64,000 bases of DNA from Candidatus Kuenenbacteria bacterium (GTDB lineage Bacteria; Patescibacteriota; Patescibacteriia; UBA2196; GWA2-42-15). Location: positions 1,241 through 65,240 of the forward strand of contig JAAZOM010000022.1 of assembly GCA_012797775.1 (NCBI GenBank), given 5' to 3'. The position numbers and the translations under genes are program-made. Numbering within the stretch: the first letter of the stretch is position 1; each line of letters opens with the position of its first letter. Below are positions 6,523 to 63,016 of this stretch, in pieces. The notes beneath the pieces were generated by a model. The model was not told the DNA's origin, made no database searches, and saw only the letters and a list, made by a program, of their open reading frames with translations.

Positions 6523-6617
6523 TTGACAACGCCCCCATTTTTTTATAGGGTTACTCAATTCAAACAAAAAGTAAATAACCCTTAAAAAGTGCTATAAAAA
6601 AACAGGAGGGTGTAATC

Positions 6618-7646
6618 ATGAAAATGAAATGGATCGTGTTTCTGCTGTTGGTGCTTGCTTTTGGCAGCCCGTCACAGGAAATCGGGGTGACATATTCATA
6701 CCCACACGCCTTATGGTTATACGATGGCGACGAGACCAAGGCCAAGGCGGTGCTGGAACAAGCAGCACAAGCGGGGATAAAGGACTTACGCCTGATAATC
6801 CACTGGAACTGGTGTCAACCAGACTCCAGCGGCCAGTTCGATTTCAGCAGTCTGGAGTGGCAGCTCGAGATCATGGAAAAATACGGGGCCGAAACCGTTA
6901 TATTATGCCTCGGGCGCAAGGTTCCGAGATGGCCCGAGTACCACATTCCCGAATGGGCTAAGCAGTTGCCAGAGGAGGAATTCCGGCAAAAGCTCATCCG
7001 GTACATAGAGGGGGTAATTTCGCATTATTCCGACGACCATCGGATAACCCATTTTCAGGTCGAAAATGAGCCTTTGTCCAGTTTTGGTGAAGGGAAGGAG
7101 TTCTGGCAGAAGAGGTTTGATGATCAGCAAAATTTTCTGGCCGCTGAAATTTCCATCGTTGAAAAGTATGATCATCTTTGCCGGCCTATTATCGTCACTG
7201 ACCCAGGCGATTTTGGAAATTACAATGACGCCGCCGAAAATGCAGATATTTTGGGCGTGAGTTATTATGGGGTAGTTTACAACAGTTGGTTGGGCTATTT
7301 CCCCAACCGCTGGCTTTACAAAAAATTCTTTCGTTTTTTTATTGGGAATTTTTTATGTGGCCCATGGTTCCAGGCCGAGACGATCAGCCAGTTCATCGGA
7401 GGCAAGTCAGTCTGGATGGTTGAAGGCCAAGGCGAACCCTGGGGTCCAAAGGATAACAGGTCGCTCTCCCCAGAGGAGTCTGCCAAAAGCATGAACCCAG
7501 AGAAGCTTCGGCAGAATCTGGAAGCTGTTCGACAAGCTGGCTTCAAAGGGCCAATTTTTCTCTGGGGCATCGAATGGATGGCCTGGATGAGAGATAAAGG
7601 CCACCGAGAGATGTGGGAGACCGTGGAGGGTCTAGTCCGAAAATAA
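6618..7646 (+). CDS. Secreted glycoside hydrolase, clan GH-A (beta/alpha)8 fold, GH5-like. It is markedly GC-richer than its flanks.
   Basis: Signal peptide MKMKWIVFLLLVLAFGSPSQ. NEP acid/base motif (HFQVENEPLSS) and a putative nucleophile region (VWMVEGQGEPWG). Strong SD AGGAGGG 8 nt upstream. Terminators lie on both sides. Confidence 0.5.
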   Translation: MKMKWIVFLLLVLAFGSPSQEIGVTYSYPHALWLYDGDETKAKAVLEQAAQAGIKDLRLIIHWNWCQPDSSGQFDFSSLEWQLEIMEKYGAETVILCLGRKVPRWPEYHIPEWAKQLPEEEFRQKLIRYIEGVISHYSDDHRITHFQVENEPLSSFGEGKEFWQKRFDDQQNFLAAEISIVEKYDHLCRPIIVTDPGDFGNYNDAAENADILGVSYYGVVYNSWLGYFPNRWLYKKFFRFFIGNFLCGPWFQAETISQFIGGKSVWMVEGQGEPWGPKDNRSLSPEESAKSMNPEKLRQNLEAVRQAGFKGPIFLWGIEWMAWMRDKGHREMWETVEGLVRK

Positions 7647-50192: not shown

Positions 50193-50678
50193 ATGATAGG
50201 CAAAATTTTTTATAACCTTTATAATAAATTGGCGGACAAGATCAGGAATATACCCATAGTTCGCAAGCACCCTACCGCCAAAGAATTAATAAAATATTCG
50301 ATTGTTGGCAATTTCAGTAATATTTTAGATCTTGTTTTATATGTCATTTTGACTCGCTCTTTTATTTTTTGGCATGAAAATTATCTTTTTGCCAATGTCC
50401 TTACGATGGTTGTCGGCAGTCTTAGCCGTTTCTTTCTCCATAAAAAATGGACATTCCGCCACGACACTGGCTCTTTTCATGAGCAATATCTTAGATTTAT
50501 TGCCGTTATGTTCGTCAGCCTTATCTTGAGCACCGTTCTATTGTTTTTAACTGTAGAATACTTGCTTGTTAATGATATTGTGGGTAAACTTATTGCTACC
50601 GCTATTATTACCCTTATTGTCTATTATTTAACCAAAATTTGGGTGTTCAAAAAAGGTATTCCTTGTAATAAATTTTAA
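50193..50678 (+). CDS. GtrA-family membrane protein.
   Basis: About 160 aa, four TM helices, N-terminal KYSIVGNFSNILDL. Confidence 0.45.
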   Translation: MIGKIFYNLYNKLADKIRNIPIVRKHPTAKELIKYSIVGNFSNILDLVLYVILTRSFIFWHENYLFANVLTMVVGSLSRFFLHKKWTFRHDTGSFHEQYLRFIAVMFVSLILSTVLLFLTVEYLLVNDIVGKLIATAIITLIVYYLTKIWVFKKGIPCNKF

Positions 50679-50701
50679 TAATTAAGTTAATTAACAAAAA
50701 T

Positions 50702-51724
50702 ATGACTACTATTGATAAAGCTTCTTTGGCCACTGGCCGCCAAAATGTTATTTTGACTGGGGCCGCCGGGTTTATCGGTTCCAATCTCGCTGAGGCGCTA
50801 GTCAAAAATTACAATGTTATTGCCATTGATAATTTTATTACCGGTAAAGAAAAAAATATTGACATGCTTTTGCAGCTGCCAAATTTTGAGTTTATTAGAC
50901 ATGATATTTCCCAACCTTTAAAATTGGAAGATTTTCCCGAATTAAAAAAATTCCAGATTGATGTTCAGGGTATAAATAAAATTTTTAATCTAGCTTGCCC
51001 GACAGCTCCCAAAGACCACGCCAAATATGCCATGGAAATAATTGCCGCCAATTCTATCGGCATGCAAAACATGCTGAACCTGGCCCTAAAATACAAAGCG
51101 ACCTTTGTCCATGTCTCCAGCCAACATGTCTATGGCATGCCCAAAGACACCAACCCCATCAAGGAAGACTATTTCGGTTATGTCAATCCGGTGAGCCCGC
51201 GCAGCGCCTATGATGAGGGCAAAAGATTTGCCGAGTCTATCGTTAGTGAATATCAAAGGCAGTTCGGGCTGGACGCTAGGGTCGCCCGGGTTTTCACCAC
51301 CTACGGCCCGCGCATGGCCCTCAAAGAAGGTCGTTCTGTCCCTGATTTTATTATCAACGCCCTCAACGGCGAAGATTTGATTATTTATGGTGATGAGAAT
51401 ACCAAAAATACCTTCTGCCATGTCGACGATATCGTTGACGGCCTTATAAAATTGGCCAACTCACCCCTCAATACGCCAGTCAATTTGGGACATTATGAAA
51501 AGTATACTCTCAAAAGCACTGCGGAATTGATCATCAAGCTGACTGAATCAAAATCTAAAATAATTTATCGTGATCCAGAGTGGTATGTTGCTTCCTATAA
51601 TATCCCCGACATCTCTTTGGCCAAAGAATCCCTTGGCTGGTTCCCCTTGATCGGTCCAGAAGAAGGATTGTCAAAAACCATAGAGTTTACCAAAATCAAT
51701 CTGAGATTGTATCAGTCTCAATAA
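50702..51724 (+). CDS. UDP-glucuronate decarboxylase (UDP-xylose synthase)-like NAD-dependent epimerase/dehydratase.
   Basis: ILTGAAGFIGSNL..IDNFITGKEKNI, followed by a YxxxK-like catalytic motif (YDEGK). Confidence 0.55.
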   Translation: MTTIDKASLATGRQNVILTGAAGFIGSNLAEALVKNYNVIAIDNFITGKEKNIDMLLQLPNFEFIRHDISQPLKLEDFPELKKFQIDVQGINKIFNLACPTAPKDHAKYAMEIIAANSIGMQNMLNLALKYKATFVHVSSQHVYGMPKDTNPIKEDYFGYVNPVSPRSAYDEGKRFAESIVSEYQRQFGLDARVARVFTTYGPRMALKEGRSVPDFIINALNGEDLIIYGDENTKNTFCHVDDIVDGLIKLANSPLNTPVNLGHYEKYTLKSTAELIIKLTESKSKIIYRDPEWYVASYNIPDISLAKESLGWFPLIGPEEGLSKTIEFTKINLRLYQSQ

Positions 51725-51747
51725 TAATTAAGAATTAATAGAAGATT

Positions 51748-52905
51748 ATGTCAAAATACATTTTTACTTCCGAGTCGGTCACCGAAGGTCATCCAGACAA
51801 AGTTTGTGACCAGCTGTCAGATGGTATTTATGATGAAATGATTAAACAAGATCCAGACGCTCATGCCGGCATTGAATGTTACGCCACCACCGGTCTGGTC
51901 GTAGTCGGCGGTGAGGCCCGCACCAAGGCCTATATTGACATTCAGGAGACAGTTAGAAAAATTTTACAACGCATCGGCTATGACAAGCCGGAAATTGGTT
52001 TTTGTTTTTCTGATGTTGGAGTTATCTCCACCTTACACGAACAGTCACCAGATATTGCCCAGGGTGTTGACGAGGGCGCCGGTGAATTCAAAGAACAAGG
52101 TGCTGGCGACCAGGGCTTGATGTTTGGCTTTGCCACCAATGAAACACCGGAATTGATGCCTATGCCGATTTCTCTGGCTCATAAATTGACTGCCAAATTA
52201 TCCGAGGTGCGCAAAAGCGGGCAATTACCTTATCTGCGCCCCGATGGTAAAAGCCAAGTGACAGTTGAATATGAAGATGGCAAGCCAGTTCGAGTTAGTA
52301 CTGTAGTCATCGCCGCTCATCATGCCGACGATGTTTCTTCGGAACAATTACGTGCTGACATAAAAGAGCAAGTTATCCAGCCAGTACTCGGCGATTTAGT
52401 TGATGAGAATACGAAATATTTTATCAATTCTACTGGTCGCTTTGTTTTGGGCGGCCCGCCAGCCGATACCGGCCTTACTGGTCGCAAAATCATTGTTGAT
52501 ACTTACGGCGGTTATAGCCGTCATGGTGGTGGCTGTTTTTCCGGCAAATGTATCACCAAAGTTGATCGCTCGGCCGCCTATATGGCGCGCTATGTCGCCA
52601 AAAATATCGTCGCCGCTGGGCTGGCTGACAAATGCGAGATCCAGGTCGCTTATTCCATTGGTGTGGCTGAACCAGTCAGTATTTTGGTAGATACTTTTGG
52701 TACTGGTAAAATTTCTAATGAGAAAATAGAGCAGGCGGTTAAAGAAACTTTTAGCTTCAAGCCCAAGGATATTATTGACCAGCTAGATCTCAAGCGCCCA
52801 ATTTATGAAAAGACCGCTGCTTATGGCCACTTTGGCCGCGAACTGCCGGAGTTCACTTGGGAAAAAACCGATAAGGCGGAAATATTAAAAAAATATTTGG
52901 TATAA
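51748..52905 (+). CDS. metK: S-adenosylmethionine synthetase.
   Basis: [17 protein letters not shown] and GGGAFSGKD-like GGCFSGKC. Confidence 0.9.
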
Positions 52906-52908
52906 TCT

Positions 52909-53331
52909 ATGGAATATATTGACAAGGAAATTGATATTAAACCAAAAGAGGAATTAACAAAAGTTACGGGGATTTTTGAAGGCCTGATTCAGTCAGAAAG
53001 ATTGATCAATGCCAATATCTTTTGCTGGTTGCCCCATGAGGTTTCTTCTTTGGTTTTGGCCGAATCCGATCCAAATTTTCTTGCCGACCTCAAAGATTAT
53101 TTGGCTGATACTATTCCTTCAGGCCAATGGGTCAAGCACGATGAACCGAATACGCCGTTTCGTCATAATGCTCATGAGCATATTCGCACTAAAGTTATTG
53201 GCCGCCACTCATTGACGCTACTAGTTAAAGATTCAAAAATATGGTGGGGGCAGTACCAAGATCTTTATTTATACAATCCTGTTTATCAACATAAATCAAA
53301 CAAGCTGCTTATCCGTATAATGAAATTTTAA
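52909..53331 (+). CDS. YjbQ/UPF0047 family protein (secondary thiamine-phosphate synthase-like).
   Basis: The HNAHEH..L.G.S and W.GQYQ.L pattern of the YjbQ family. Confidence 0.5.
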   Translation: MEYIDKEIDIKPKEELTKVTGIFEGLIQSERLINANIFCWLPHEVSSLVLAESDPNFLADLKDYLADTIPSGQWVKHDEPNTPFRHNAHEHIRTKVIGRHSLTLLVKDSKIWWGQYQDLYLYNPVYQHKSNKLLIRIMKF

Positions 53332-53371
53332 AATAAAAAGCGGCCCCGCAATTTATATGACGGGGGCCGCC
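53328..53371 (-). terminator. Rho-independent terminator for the minus-strand small gene (hairpin, then a T-run on the minus strand).
   Basis: GCGGCCCCG-N12-CGGGGGCCGC, preceded on the plus strand by AAATAAAAA. Confidence 0.65.
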
Positions 53372-53400
53372 GCTCTGGTGGCTATTGCCGACAATCCCGG

Positions 53401-53679
53401 TTAAATCACCCGGAATGAAGAACACTGCACCACCACCCGAATTGGACTTGAGATAGTTGCCAAGATGGCGTCTTCATAGGAAAATTTTATGACGCCATTC
53501 TGTGCCGCCACCAATAGAATATCCAGCAGTTGTGGCGTCCAGATCCCTCCAAGTAAATTCGGTTCACCTTTAAGGATGTAACTGCAAAGATCCGTAAAAG
53601 AGACACTCTCCCCACTGTGCGTTTCAAAAAATTCACGCACCAGTTTGCCCAGAATCTCTCTGGTTTCCACGATCATCAC
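53401..53679 (-). CDS. GC-rich orphan small protein (92 aa) with a strong SD and its own terminator; function unknown.
   Basis: AAAAGGAGGTGATGATCGTG context (SD GGAGGTG 5 nt from the start). A terminator follows. Roughly 48% GC against ~38% in the flanks. Confidence 0.45.
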   Translation of the reverse strand: MMIVETREILGKLVREFFETHSGESVSFTDLCSYILKGEPNLLGGIWTPQLLDILLVAAQNGVIKFSYEDAILATISSPIRVVVQCSSFRVI

Positions 53680-53863
53680 CTCCTTTTATTACACAGGCTT
53701 TTATTAGTTCATGTTCAAAAAATGACCATCATCTGATAGTAACAGAGAATCTTCTGTTTGGCAAGAGGCAAAAATATTTCCAAGTCCTCCCAAGGTTCAA
53801 CCATCACCGCCTAGACCGCGAAGCAGGGCAGACTGGATTGAACCAATGATTCAAAAATTATCT

Positions 53864-54781
53864 ATGACCATCCTTGTCACTGGTGGCGCCGGTTTTATTG
53901 GCTCACACCTGGTAGATAAATTAATAAAAGAAAAACACCGCGTTATTGTTGTGGATGATTTGTCAACCGGCAAAAAAATAAACTTAAACAAACGCGCCAA
54001 ATTTTATCGTCTGGATATTCAGGACAAAAAACTGGAACAAATATTCAAAAAAGAAAAACCACAAGTTGTTTATCATCTGGCCGCCCAGATGAATGTCCGC
54101 AAATCTATCGCTGATCCCATTTTTGACGCAAAAACTAATATCGTCGGTGTTTTGAATTTATTGGAAAATTGCGTCAAATACCATGTAAAAAAATTTGTCT
54201 TTATTTCCACCGGCGGGGCGATTTATGGTGACGGCGTCAAGATTCCTACGCCTGAAACAGCCACCGAGGCACCGATCTCACCCTATGGCATTGCCAAGCT
54301 GGCCACCGAAAAATATTTACATTATTATCGTCATCAATACGGATTAAACTACACCGTGCTCCGTCTGGCCAATATCTATGGCCCGCGCCAAAATTATCTA
54401 GGAGAAGCCGGGGTCGTAGCCATTTTTTGCCATCAACTCAAAAATAATCAACCCACATTTATCAATGGTCCTGGCCAACAAACCAGAGATTTTGTTTTTG
54501 TCGCCGATGTTGTTGCCGCTGCCTTAAAAGCCCTCAAAGACAAAAAACCAAATATTTACAATATTGCCACCAGCAAAGAAAATAATATCAATCAATTGGC
54601 AAGTGCTTTGCAAAAAGTTAGCGGCGTGAAAACCCCCATTGAGCATCGCTCGGCTATCAAAGGTGAGCAGATGAGAAGCTGTCTGAATTACCAGAAGATA
54701 AAAAAACACCTTGGTTGGTCGCCAAAGTATGATCTAGAAAAAGGACTAAGGGAAACCTGGCAGTGGTTTCAGAAAAATTAA
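53864..54781 (+). CDS. galE: UDP-glucose 4-epimerase-like NAD-dependent epimerase.
   Basis: MTILVTGGAGFIGSHLVDKL and YGIAK. Confidence 0.6.
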   Translation: MTILVTGGAGFIGSHLVDKLIKEKHRVIVVDDLSTGKKINLNKRAKFYRLDIQDKKLEQIFKKEKPQVVYHLAAQMNVRKSIADPIFDAKTNIVGVLNLLENCVKYHVKKFVFISTGGAIYGDGVKIPTPETATEAPISPYGIAKLATEKYLHYYRHQYGLNYTVLRLANIYGPRQNYLGEAGVVAIFCHQLKNNQPTFINGPGQQTRDFVFVADVVAAALKALKDKKPNIYNIATSKENNINQLASALQKVSGVKTPIEHRSAIKGEQMRSCLNYQKIKKHLGWSPKYDLEKGLRETWQWFQKN

Positions 54782-62822: not shown

Positions 62823-62826
62823 CATC

Positions 62827-62966
62827 TTTTCCCCTCCTCTCTGAGGAGGGGGTAGGGGGTGGTGGGAGACTCGCAGTAATTTGATTATATAAAAAACTTA
62901 TTAGTGCAACTGTCCCACCACCCTGGCTCGCGAGCTCGCCACCCCCCCCTCAGGGAGGAGGGGAAA
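62827..62966. repeat. GC-rich compound inverted repeat (~140 nt) with nested hairpins and G-runs; a candidate structured RNA, terminator or miniature insertion.
   Basis: Outer arms TTTCCCCTCCTC/GAGGAGGGGAAA and inner arms GGGTGGTGGGA/TCCCACCACCC around a ~40-nt AT-rich loop. Each arm has its own CCTCC..GGAGG hairpin. Confidence 0.6.
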
Positions 62967-63016
62967 TTCACGCGCCCGGATTAGTTTTTAGACTAAAAAA
63001 TTCTAAAATTATTTTC

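What the first reader, a model, noticed from the sequence alone, without database searches (positions are those of the whole stretch)
53328..53860. GC-rich orphan small gene with a consensus SD and a dedicated terminator.
The ~530-nt gap between yjbQ-like and galE is GC-richer than its surroundings. It contains a minus-strand 92-aa ORF (53401-53679). The ORF is preceded by AAAAGGAGGTG, a near-perfect SD, and followed by a GC-rich hairpin (GCGGCCCCG..CGGGGGCCGC) plus a T-run on its own strand. The protein (MMIVETREILGKLVREFFETHSGESV..) has no family I recognise. Composition, expression signals and isolation between housekeeping genes suggest a horizontally acquired small gene. I checked for RNase P, tmRNA and SRP RNA hallmarks and did not see them.
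Basis: seen in the sequence. Interest (0 to 1): 0.5.

Follow-up and report, generated by a model that had tools for sequence, protein, structure and literature searches.

The report
Strain-specific orphan small-gene cassette beside galE
The gap holds a probably real small gene of unknown family that only this strain carries, inserted by recombination next to a decayed piece of the neighbouring galE gene; it is a modest curiosity, not a new kind of system.

Summary
A 92-codon minus-strand ORF (53401-53679) follows a very strong Shine-Dalgarno (SD) site and precedes a GC hairpin with a U-run. The "GC-rich" claim is weak, only +1.6 sd above native genes.

The window is a Candidatus Kuenenbacteria MAG. 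Positions 53332-53863 (532 nt) are absent from sister lineages, where the yjbQ stop and the galE start are 1 nt apart. A strain 98% identical in metK carries an unrelated 89-aa minus-strand ORF at this site instead. An independent assembly reproduces the insert exactly.

It carries the only good promoter match for the ORF. The functional galE is itself a recombinant mosaic.

The metK|galE junction is a variable slot holding at least six different contents. Three are unrelated minus-strand small ORFs, each with a strong SD and its own terminator, in a genome whose genes almost never have an SD.

Verdict: a probably real, recombination-acquired orphan gene of unknown function. Interest is moderate to low.

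The parts
53332..53863 (.). The 532-nt strain-specific insertion between the yjbQ stop codon and the galE start codon.
   Evidence: L001, L003/L010 and L011-L015 read ...GAAATTTTAA-T-ATGAAA... with no gap. The BLAST alignment breaks at 53339 and 53863. The independent Logan contig L016 is 100% identical over 52626-54173.
53332..53371 (-). Intrinsic terminator for the small gene: hairpin 53371-53340, then UUUUUAUUUU at 53339-53332.
   Evidence: Fold energy is -19.6 kcal/mol for the hairpin. The U-run is on the minus strand only. The plus strand has an A-run before the hairpin and CGCTCTGG after it. The 12-nt loop explains why the simple scan missed it.
53401..53679 (-). Orphan ORF. It is 92 codons from GTG 53679, 91 from ATG 53676 (the NCBI form), or 89 from GTG 53670, which is the most likely start. 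The stop is TAA at 53403-53401.
53675..53687 (-). Shine-Dalgarno site AAAAGGAGGTGAT.
   Evidence: Duplex with a canonical anti-SD is -19.2 kcal/mol. GGAGGTGA occurs twice in 128 kb of both strands. Only one other of the 54 native gene starts has a strong SD.
53736..53764 (-). Promoter-like site TTGCCA-17 nt-TACTAT, with TG before the -10 hexamer. The inferred transcription start is near 53729, giving a leader of about 50-60 nt.
   Evidence: It is the only minus-strand promoter-like match between the ORF start and galE (53680-53863) in the consensus scan. It is the only occurrence in the window, with 0 expected. The same motif lies antisense in galE nt 82-110 of L017-19 and L020-21. This is a consensus match only and has not been shown to function.
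53685..53860 (+). Decayed copy of galE nt ~30-190 (a galE pseudogene fragment, psi-galE) of the L017/L020 allele class. It has in-frame stops and indels.
   Evidence: The local alignment scores 42-43, against a shuffle maximum of 25-30. The global alignment is 69-71% identical, z 5.6-6.1. MAFFT block. tblastx hits fall on galE of L020, L021 and L006.
53864..54781 (+). The functional galE (NAD-dependent epimerase). It is a recombinant mosaic and forms the right flank of the insertion.
   Evidence: Pfam Epimerase hit, E 1.5e-66. Nt 1-135 are 82-91% identical to L006 but only 57-75% identical to L017. Nt 136 to the end are mostly 82-100% identical to L017, dipping to 60% in one 45-nt window around nt 316.
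52909..53331 (+). The yjbQ-like gene (UPF0047). It forms the left flank and is itself variable: it is absent from the closest strain, L017.
   Evidence: Pfam PF01894, E 9.6e-12. L017-19, L020-22 and L026 have no yjbQ between metK and galE.

Best explanation
The 532-nt gap is a strain-specific insertion at the yjbQ|galE junction of a Candidatus Kuenenbacteria genome. It is one contiguous piece of a [quoted passage not shown] locus from a sister lineage. It arrived by recombination, which also left the functional galE as a mosaic.

It works as a self-contained minus-strand expression unit:
- a sigma-70-like promoter (53764-53736) preserved inside the decayed galE fragment;
- a leader of about 50-60 nt;
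- an unusually strong SD;
- an 89-91-codon ORF;
- an intrinsic terminator that abuts the yjbQ stop codon.

The product is an orphan, acidic (pI 4.9), single-domain protein predicted to adopt a winged-helix fold. The helix at the "recognition" position has no basic residues. I therefore infer a protein-binding or regulatory adaptor rather than a classical DNA-binding repressor.

Shown: the indel, the mosaic, the pseudogene fragment, the signals, the orphan status and the parallel cassettes in relatives.

Inferred: transcription, translation, the fold and the function.
For: Indel and its polarity:
- Sister lineages have the yjbQ stop and galE start 1 nt apart.
- Outgroups have metK overlapping galE, or the upstream epimerase abutting galE.
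- L017 is 98.2% identical over 50244-52905 but carries a different 89-aa ORF and no yjbQ.
- The insert is not a misassembly: the independent Logan contig is 100% identical.

Recombination scar:
- psi-galE at 53685-53860.
- Mosaic functional galE.

Coding evidence:
- ORF plus SD arise jointly by chance in 0.17% of shuffles.
- The annotated frame scores best of the six frames, though only narrowly.
- The GC1>GC3>GC2 pattern matches native genes.

Parallel cassettes:
- ORF89 (L017) and ORF96 (L020/21) sit in the same slot on the same strand.
- Each has a strong SD (-9.3 and -12.9 kcal/mol) and its own terminator (-19.6 and -18.0 kcal/mol).
- They lie only 17-30 nt from galE, so their promoter must sit inside galE.
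- The motif TTGCCA-N17-TACTAT is found exactly there.
- ORF89 also models as a winged helix: pLDDT 68.5, and all top 50 Foldseek hits are winged-helix domains.
Against: - Only one genome carries the ORF (two assemblies, probably of the same sample), so conservation and dN/dS cannot be tested.
- Codon usage is ambiguous. It is at the 11th percentile of native genes, and 19% of known spurious ORFs score as high.
- ORF length alone is unremarkable (p = 0.16).
- The structure model has low confidence (pLDDT 59.6, single sequence), and the Foldseek E-values are not significant.
- The promoter motif is the antisense of conserved VIVVDxLSTGK codons. Weaker versions occur in every galE allele, and the three loci with the exact motif share one allele class. 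Its association with minus-strand ORFs is therefore confounded by ancestry.
- ORF92, ORF89 and ORF96 show no sequence similarity to one another.
- No donor sequence was found.
- The 16S anti-SD of this organism is not in the window, so SD function is assumed.
Confidence: 0.55

Rival explanations
1. The insert is a non-coding recombination scar. It is decaying DNA left by recombination at a hot spot, and the 92-codon ORF is fortuitous and not expressed as protein.
For: - The adjacent 176 nt are demonstrably a decaying galE fragment.
- ORF length alone occurs in 16% of shuffles.
- Codon usage lies between native genes and spurious ORFs.
- The ORF is a singleton among about 15 billion proteins.
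Against: - The SD is exactly placed, and the joint chance of ORF plus SD is 0.17%.
- A strong terminator lies on the correct strand.
- Two other lineages carry analogous SD-and-terminator small ORFs in the same slot.
- The ORF part shows no similarity to any gene in relatives, so it is not a recognisable pseudogene.
Confidence: 0.2
2. The product is a classical winged helix-turn-helix DNA-binding regulator, in the manner of PadR, MarR or Fur. It would control the adjacent galE and cell-envelope glycan operon.
For: - The predicted topology is H1-S1-H2-H3-S2-S3.
- PadR, Fur, Zur and LmrR are among the structural hits for ORF92 and ORF89.
- ORF89 has a weak Pfam RTP hit, E 0.031.
- The gene lies divergently from galE within a glycan locus: Wzy_C, GtrA and epimerases.
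Against: - No HTH-clan Pfam or NCBIfam hit, even at E<=1-10.
- The protein is acidic (pI 4.9).
- Helix 3 (residues 49-60, QLLDILLVAAQN) has no Lys or Arg.
- The loop between H2 and H3 is 10 residues, not a tight turn.
- The best structural matches are protein-binding winged helices: JetB, cullin WHB and ORC.
Confidence: 0.15
3. The functional product is the minus-strand RNA, not a protein. Its convergent transcription, or the RNA itself, would modulate read-through from metK-yjbQ into galE.
For: - In relatives galE directly follows yjbQ, with stop and start 1 nt apart, and so probably depends on the upstream operon.
- No plus-strand promoter match lies between the cassette and galE.
- The 404-nt transcript folds better than shuffles, z -2.5.
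Against: - An SD of -19 kcal/mol and an open frame that fills the transcript are unexplained by an RNA-only role.
- No Rfam match.
- No relatives exist for a covariation test.
- The transcript overlaps psi-galE, not the functional galE.
Confidence: 0.08
4. The ORF is an old vertically inherited gene of this genus, and the sampled relatives have lost it.
For: The slot between metK and galE is occupied by some gene in many relatives.
Against: - The occupants are mutually unrelated.
- Outgroups have metK overlapping galE.
- A strain 98% identical in the flank has a different occupant.
- The SD is alien to the genome's usual start context.
- The psi-galE fragment and the mosaic galE indicate recent recombination.
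Confidence: 0.05

Closest known systems
Winged-helix domains that act as protein-protein modules: the JetB/kite winged helix of Wadjet, cullin WHB, and ORC/Cdc6 winged helices.
   Same: - The predicted H1-S1-H2-H3-S2-S3 topology matches.
- Helix 3 is non-basic.
   Different: - No sequence or profile similarity.
- It is a single free-standing domain.
- No JetA, JetC or JetD, SMC or kleisin gene was seen in the flanking genes that were annotated.
- The model has low confidence.
Small bacterial winged helix-turn-helix regulators: PadR, MarR, the Fur DNA-binding domain, and RTP.
   Same: - Similar size and fold class.
- These families appear among the structural hits for ORF92 and for ORF89 in the same slot.
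- The gene lies divergently from the gene it might regulate.
   Different: - No family HMM hit.
- The protein is acidic.
- The recognition helix has no basic residues.
- The H2-H3 loop is long.
Gene-cassette hot spots, such as integron arrays or variable islands flanked by conserved genes.
   Same: - Unrelated small ORFs are exchanged at one fixed chromosomal position, next to a fixed promoter-bearing sequence.
- At least six different contents occupy the metK|galE junction.
   Different: - No integrase, attC-like repeat, target-site duplication or terminal inverted repeat was found.
- Each minus-strand cassette carries its own SD and terminator.
- Exchange appears to occur by general recombination.
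Lineage-specific orphan (ORFan) genes of candidate phyla radiation (Patescibacteria) genomes.
   Same: A short hypothetical protein confined to a single genome. NCBI names it 'hypothetical protein GYA54_03095'.
   Different: Here the history of the locus can be reconstructed: the indel, the pseudogene relic and the mosaic flank. The translation signal also differs from the host norm.

Membership tests
Winged-helix (wHTH) fold superfamily | H1-S1-H2-H3-S2-wing-S3 topology. | tested here: inconclusive
Winged-helix (wHTH) fold superfamily | A significant sequence or profile match to a family of the HTH clan. | tested here: not met
   Pfam at E<=1 and NCBIfam, PHROGs and PADLOC at E<=10 gave no hits. 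phmmer against PDB sequences at E<=10 gave none.
DNA-binding wHTH transcription regulators (PadR, MarR, Fur-like) | A basic recognition helix (H3) and a wing that contact DNA. | tested here: not met
   Helix 3 (QLLDILLVAAQN) has no Lys or Arg. Whole-protein pI is 4.9, with 7 K+R and 10 D+E. DNA binding itself cannot be tested here.
Wadjet JetB / kite proteins | Tandem winged-helix domains encoded in a jetABCD (SMC-kleisin-kite) operon. | tested here: not met
   ORF92 is a single 89-92-aa domain. It has no PADLOC JetB hit. Its neighbours are metK, yjbQ, galE and apt.
Known non-coding RNA families (Rfam 15) | A covariance-model match at the gathering score. | tested here: not met
   No match in 53250-53950 even at E<=10, apart from two chance-level hits outside the ORF. 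No tRNA or tmRNA was found.
Mobile element (IS, MITE or integron cassette) | Terminal inverted repeats, a target-site duplication, attC, a transposase or integrase, or multiple copies. | tested here: not met
   No convincing terminal repeats or duplication were found. There is no second copy in the window or in relatives. No phage or plasmid match was found. The remaining ~28 kb of the contig and the rest of the genome were not searched.
Pseudogene fragment of a longer gene present in relatives | DNA or translated similarity to the occupant of the same slot, or to a flanking gene, in relatives. | tested here: met
   This is met for 53685-53860, which is galE nt ~30-190 at 69-71% identity, z about 6. 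It is not met for the ORF and terminator part, 53332-53684.
Protein-coding gene native to this genome | Codon usage and start context like those of the other genes. | tested here: inconclusive
   The codon log-likelihood ratio is 0.079, against a native mean of 0.169 (sd 0.073) and a spurious-ORF mean of -0.040 (sd 0.105). The start context, a strong SD, differs from 53 of the 54 native gene starts scored.

The most novel reading that the evidence does not exclude
The metK|galE junction of Kuenenbacteria may be a dedicated swap-in slot. A promoter embedded antisense in the first ~110 nt of galE would drive interchangeable, unrelated small genes. Each of these brings a strong Shine-Dalgarno site and its own terminator into a genome that otherwise initiates translation without SD sites. 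In this strain the promoter would have been kept as a galE pseudogene fragment because the small gene needs it. That would be a cassette-exchange arrangement without an integrase or attC. It might serve strain-level variation of small winged-helix or zinc-ribbon adaptor proteins, linked to cell-surface glycan genes.
Probability: 0.2. Interest if true: 0.55.

Novelty: new member of a known kind. Interest (0 to 1): 0.3.

Why it matters
On its own this is one more orphan hypothetical protein in a candidate-phyla-radiation MAG.

Its value is as a well-documented case. A strain-specific small gene can be dated and traced through a clean indel, a pseudogene scar and a mosaic flanking gene. Its translation signal also differs sharply from the host's SD-poor norm.

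If the slot model is right, it would show how reduced episymbiont genomes trade small accessory proteins at fixed positions in a cell-envelope glycan locus. It would also give concrete candidates (ORF92, ORF89, ORF96) for expression and interaction studies.

Tried and rejected
- **The giant-protein hit (P0002).** The only non-self hit of the exhaustive phmmer search was a 2861-aa protein, E 7.9e-6. It aligns to tandem Ig-like repeats at 31% identity, about 27 bits per repeat. The score is inflated by the repeats, and the aligned region is predicted helical in ORF92. I treat it as chance.
- **tRNA-like fragment.** GGATTGAACC near 53836 looked like a tRNA T-arm or att site. ARAGORN found nothing, and the stretch aligns to galE nt ~170-190 instead.
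- **16S rRNA 3' end.** TCACCTCCTTT on the plus strand is only the complement of the SD. There is no Rfam SSU hit.
- **Homology with other slot occupants.** ORF92 was compared with ORF89, ORF96, ORF112, ORF123 and ORF388 by BLASTP, Smith-Waterman with shuffles, hhalign and tblastn. All were non-significant.
- **Mobile-element hallmarks.** The 9-nt repeat ATGACCATC (53722 and 53864) looked like a target-site duplication. At 53722 it aligns to galE nt ~67-75, not to the start codon.
- **Donor search.** Metagenome, viral-contig, phage and plasmid searches with the protein and the DNA found nothing.
- **Single-crossover integration model.** I considered integration of a circular DNA by one crossover (Campbell-type). 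It was suggested by ACCGCCTAGAC in psi-galE matching L006-type alleles, but 11 nt at synonymous sites is too little evidence.
- **Apparent 1.6-kb gene-free stretch at 37.2-38.8 kb.** This was an artefact of my ORF filter. A 567-aa gene fills it.

Full report
**What is in the sequence**

The window has 39.9% GC. It comes from a Candidatus Kuenenbacteria MAG, because the ORF equals NCBI protein GYA54_03095 on a 91.7-kb contig.

The local gene order is as follows:
- a Wzy_C/TPR protein;
- an S8 peptidase with FG-GAP repeats;
- GtrA;
- an epimerase;
- metK (51748-52905);
- a yjbQ-like gene (52909-53331);
- the gap;
- galE (53864-54781);
- apt;
- an MTA nucleosidase on the minus strand.

- The minus-strand ORF spans 53401-53679.
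- AAAAGGAGGTGAT lies at 53687-53675 on the minus strand.
- A hairpin at 53371-53340 is followed by UUUUUAUUUU on the minus strand only.

The listed GTG start at 53679 lies inside the SD. ATG 53676, the annotated 91-aa form, is only 2 nt after GGAGG. GTG 53670 has 8-nt spacing. That matches the 6-7 nt seen in the two analogous cassettes described below, so I take 53670 as the most likely start.

**Is it more than chance?**

ORF length alone is not significant. Sixteen per cent of dinucleotide shuffles of the 532 nt contain an ORF of at least 92 codons. An ORF of at least 85 codons with GGAGG 4-10 nt before its start occurs in only 0.17%.

The "GC-rich" claim is weak.
- ORF GC is 0.459, against a native-gene mean of 0.404 (sd 0.035).
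- GC3 is 0.495, against 0.415 (sd 0.049).
- metK, apt and others are as rich or richer.

Codon usage is ambiguous.
- The log-likelihood ratio is 0.079.
- That is the 11th percentile of native 92-codon chunks.
- Nineteen per cent of known spurious ORFs score as high.
- The annotated frame scores best of the six, though only narrowly.

The SD is the truly unusual signal. Of 54 other gene starts in the window, only one (6618) has a strong SD. The rest have A/T-rich leaders of the ...ATAATT-ATG type. AGGAGG occurs 12 times in 128 kb of both strands.

**Orphan status**

No search found a relative.
- Pfam, NCBIfam, PHROGs, PADLOC and PDB sequences gave no hit, even at permissive E-values.
- The word-indexed search of 5.8 billion clusters returned only the protein itself.
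- The exhaustive phmmer scan of 1.84 billion representatives returned the protein itself and a 2861-aa repeat protein. That score comes from tandem Ig-like repeats, and I regard it as chance.
- Metagenome, viral, phage and plasmid scans found nothing.
- Rfam found nothing in the region, and ARAGORN found nothing there.

**Locus comparison: the decisive evidence**

- *Indel.* In the lineage whose YjbQ is 85% identical (L001, L003/L010, L011-L015; about 20 contigs from several sources), the gene order is the same. There the yjbQ stop and galE start are separated by 1 nt, TAA-T-ATG. Window positions 53332-53863 are therefore an indel of 532 nt.
- *Not a misassembly.* An independently assembled Logan contig from run ERR1876141 (L016) is 100% identical over 52626-54173.
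- *Closest strain.* Look-ups based on GalE found L017-19. They are 98.2% identical to the window across GtrA-epimerase-metK and 92.7% identical across apt-gltX. Between metK and galE, however, they carry no yjbQ and an unrelated 89-aa minus-strand ORF.

Other lineages hold other contents between metK and galE:
- a 96-aa Cys-rich minus-strand ORF (L020/21);
- a plus-strand coiled-coil family of 388, 123 or 112 aa, whose members are homologous to one another (L026, L022, L006);
- 281 nt of AT-rich spacer (L028).

Three groups of relatives have no slot occupant at all:
- metK overlaps galE in L030/31;
- the upstream epimerase abuts galE in L023-25, which have no metK there;
- yjbQ abuts galE in the L010-15 lineage described above.

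The empty state in the more distant genomes makes insertion the derived state.

Window 53685-53860 aligns to galE nt ~30-190.
- It fits the L017/L020 allele class best, at 69-71% identity.
- The z-score is 5.6-6.1 in global alignment. The local score is 42-43, against a shuffle maximum of 25-30.
- It contains stops and indels.

The functional galE is itself a mosaic. Its first ~135 nt are L006-like (82-91% identical, against 57-75% to L017). From nt 136 onward it is L017-like, mostly 82-100% identical, apart from one 45-nt window around nt 316 at 60%.

The insert therefore looks like one contiguous segment, "terminator - small ORF - galE 5' end", from a locus of the L017/L020 type. It was placed between yjbQ and a galE with a different 5' allele.

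**Expression model**

The only promoter-like match on the minus strand between the ORF start and galE is TTGCCA-17-TACTAT at 53764-53736, with TG before the -10. It is unique in the window and lies inside psi-galE.

The identical motif lies antisense in galE nt 82-110 of exactly the relatives that have a minus-strand ORF: L017-19 and L020-21. It occurs in none of the eight other locus types.

In those relatives the ORF start is 17-30 nt from the galE start. Any promoter for the ORF must therefore lie inside galE.

Caveats:
- The motif is the antisense of the conserved VIVVDxLSTGK codons.
- Weaker versions exist in all alleles.
- The three positive loci share one allele class.

The association is therefore suggestive, not proof.

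All three minus-strand ORFs have strong SDs (-19.2, -9.3 and -12.9 kcal/mol). All three also have their own hairpin-plus-U-run terminators (-19.6, -19.6 and -18.0 kcal/mol). The plus-strand coiled-coil genes have native-type starts without an SD.

**The protein**

The AF2 single-sequence model has low confidence (pLDDT 59.6). Its topology is winged-helix.
- Hundreds of further winged-helix matches follow.
- The Foldseek hits belong to the same fold class but are not significant.

ORF89 from L017 models somewhat better (pLDDT 68.5). It has the same order of elements, and all its top 50 Foldseek hits are winged-helix domains. It also has a weak Pfam RTP hit, E 0.031.

ORF92 and ORF89 share no detectable sequence similarity.

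ORF92 is acidic (pI 4.9), and its helix 3 has no basic residue. I therefore favour a protein-binding or adaptor role over a classical repressor role. This step is inference.

**Verdict**

The interpretation, an orphan and acquired small gene, is partly supported.

The main rival is a non-coding recombination scar with a fortuitous ORF. It cannot be excluded without expression data or further genomes, and I give it about 0.2.

As a finding it is a new member of a known kind: a lineage-specific orphan gene, probably with a winged-helix fold. The side story of a variable slot with a promoter embedded in galE would be moderately interesting if confirmed.

Noticed in passing
window 53864-54781: The functional galE is a recombinant mosaic. 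Nt 1-135 resemble the L006-type allele (82-91% identity). Nt 136 to the end resemble the L017 strain, reaching 97-100% at the 3' end.
   Followed up: yes
window 1-64000 (gene starts): The genome is almost free of Shine-Dalgarno sites. Fifty-three of the 54 native gene starts have A/T-rich leaders with no meaningful anti-SD pairing.
   Followed up: partly
window 6604-7646: The only other gene with a strong SD (CAGGAGGGTGTAATCATG) is a 342-aa protein with a weak Glyco_hydro_42 hit, located just after rplM-rpsI. It has the highest GC (0.496) and GC3 (0.586) in the window, so it is a second candidate for foreign origin.
   Followed up: partly
L017 3916-4427; also L010 2388-2804 and L006 6008-6424: A DUF559 endonuclease-like gene lies directly downstream of galE in several relatives. 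In L017 it is bracketed by CCCCTCC...GGAGGGG inverted repeats. The window lacks it, with only 12 nt between galE and apt. L023-25 have a PDDEXK_3 gene directly downstream of galE, and L020 has a GIY-YIG gene about 1.6 kb further downstream, beyond apt and the nucleosidase gene. Small nuclease genes near galE may help explain the local recombination.
   Followed up: partly
window 62823-63016: The intergenic region holds GC-rich inverted repeats (TTCCCCTCCTCTCTGAGGAGGGGG ... CCCCCCCCTCAGGGAGGAGGGGAA). They resemble the repeats that flank DUF559 in L017 and may be a REP- or MITE-like element.
   Followed up: no
L026 1217-2383; L022 2617-2988; L006 4629-4967: A plus-strand coiled-coil protein family with no Pfam hit occupies the metK|galE slot in three lineages, at lengths of 388, 123 and 112 aa. 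The members share a C-terminal ...YYxxHxxxQ...YxNKIAxxY motif. The short forms look like C-terminal remnants of the long one.
   Followed up: partly
L021 (ERZ928041, run ERR1876141) compared with the window and L016: Two different Kuenenbacteria populations occur in the same sequencing run, ERR1876141. Their GalE proteins are 85% identical, and one carries ORF96 while the other carries ORF92. Potential recombination partners therefore share a habitat.
   Followed up: no
L006 3001-4619 compared with window 51748-53331: The order of yjbQ and metK is inverted in the lineage with 77% identical YjbQ: yjbQ-metK there, metK-yjbQ here. yjbQ is missing from this locus in L017, L020, L022 and L026. yjbQ is thus itself a mobile occupant of this region.
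   Followed up: partly
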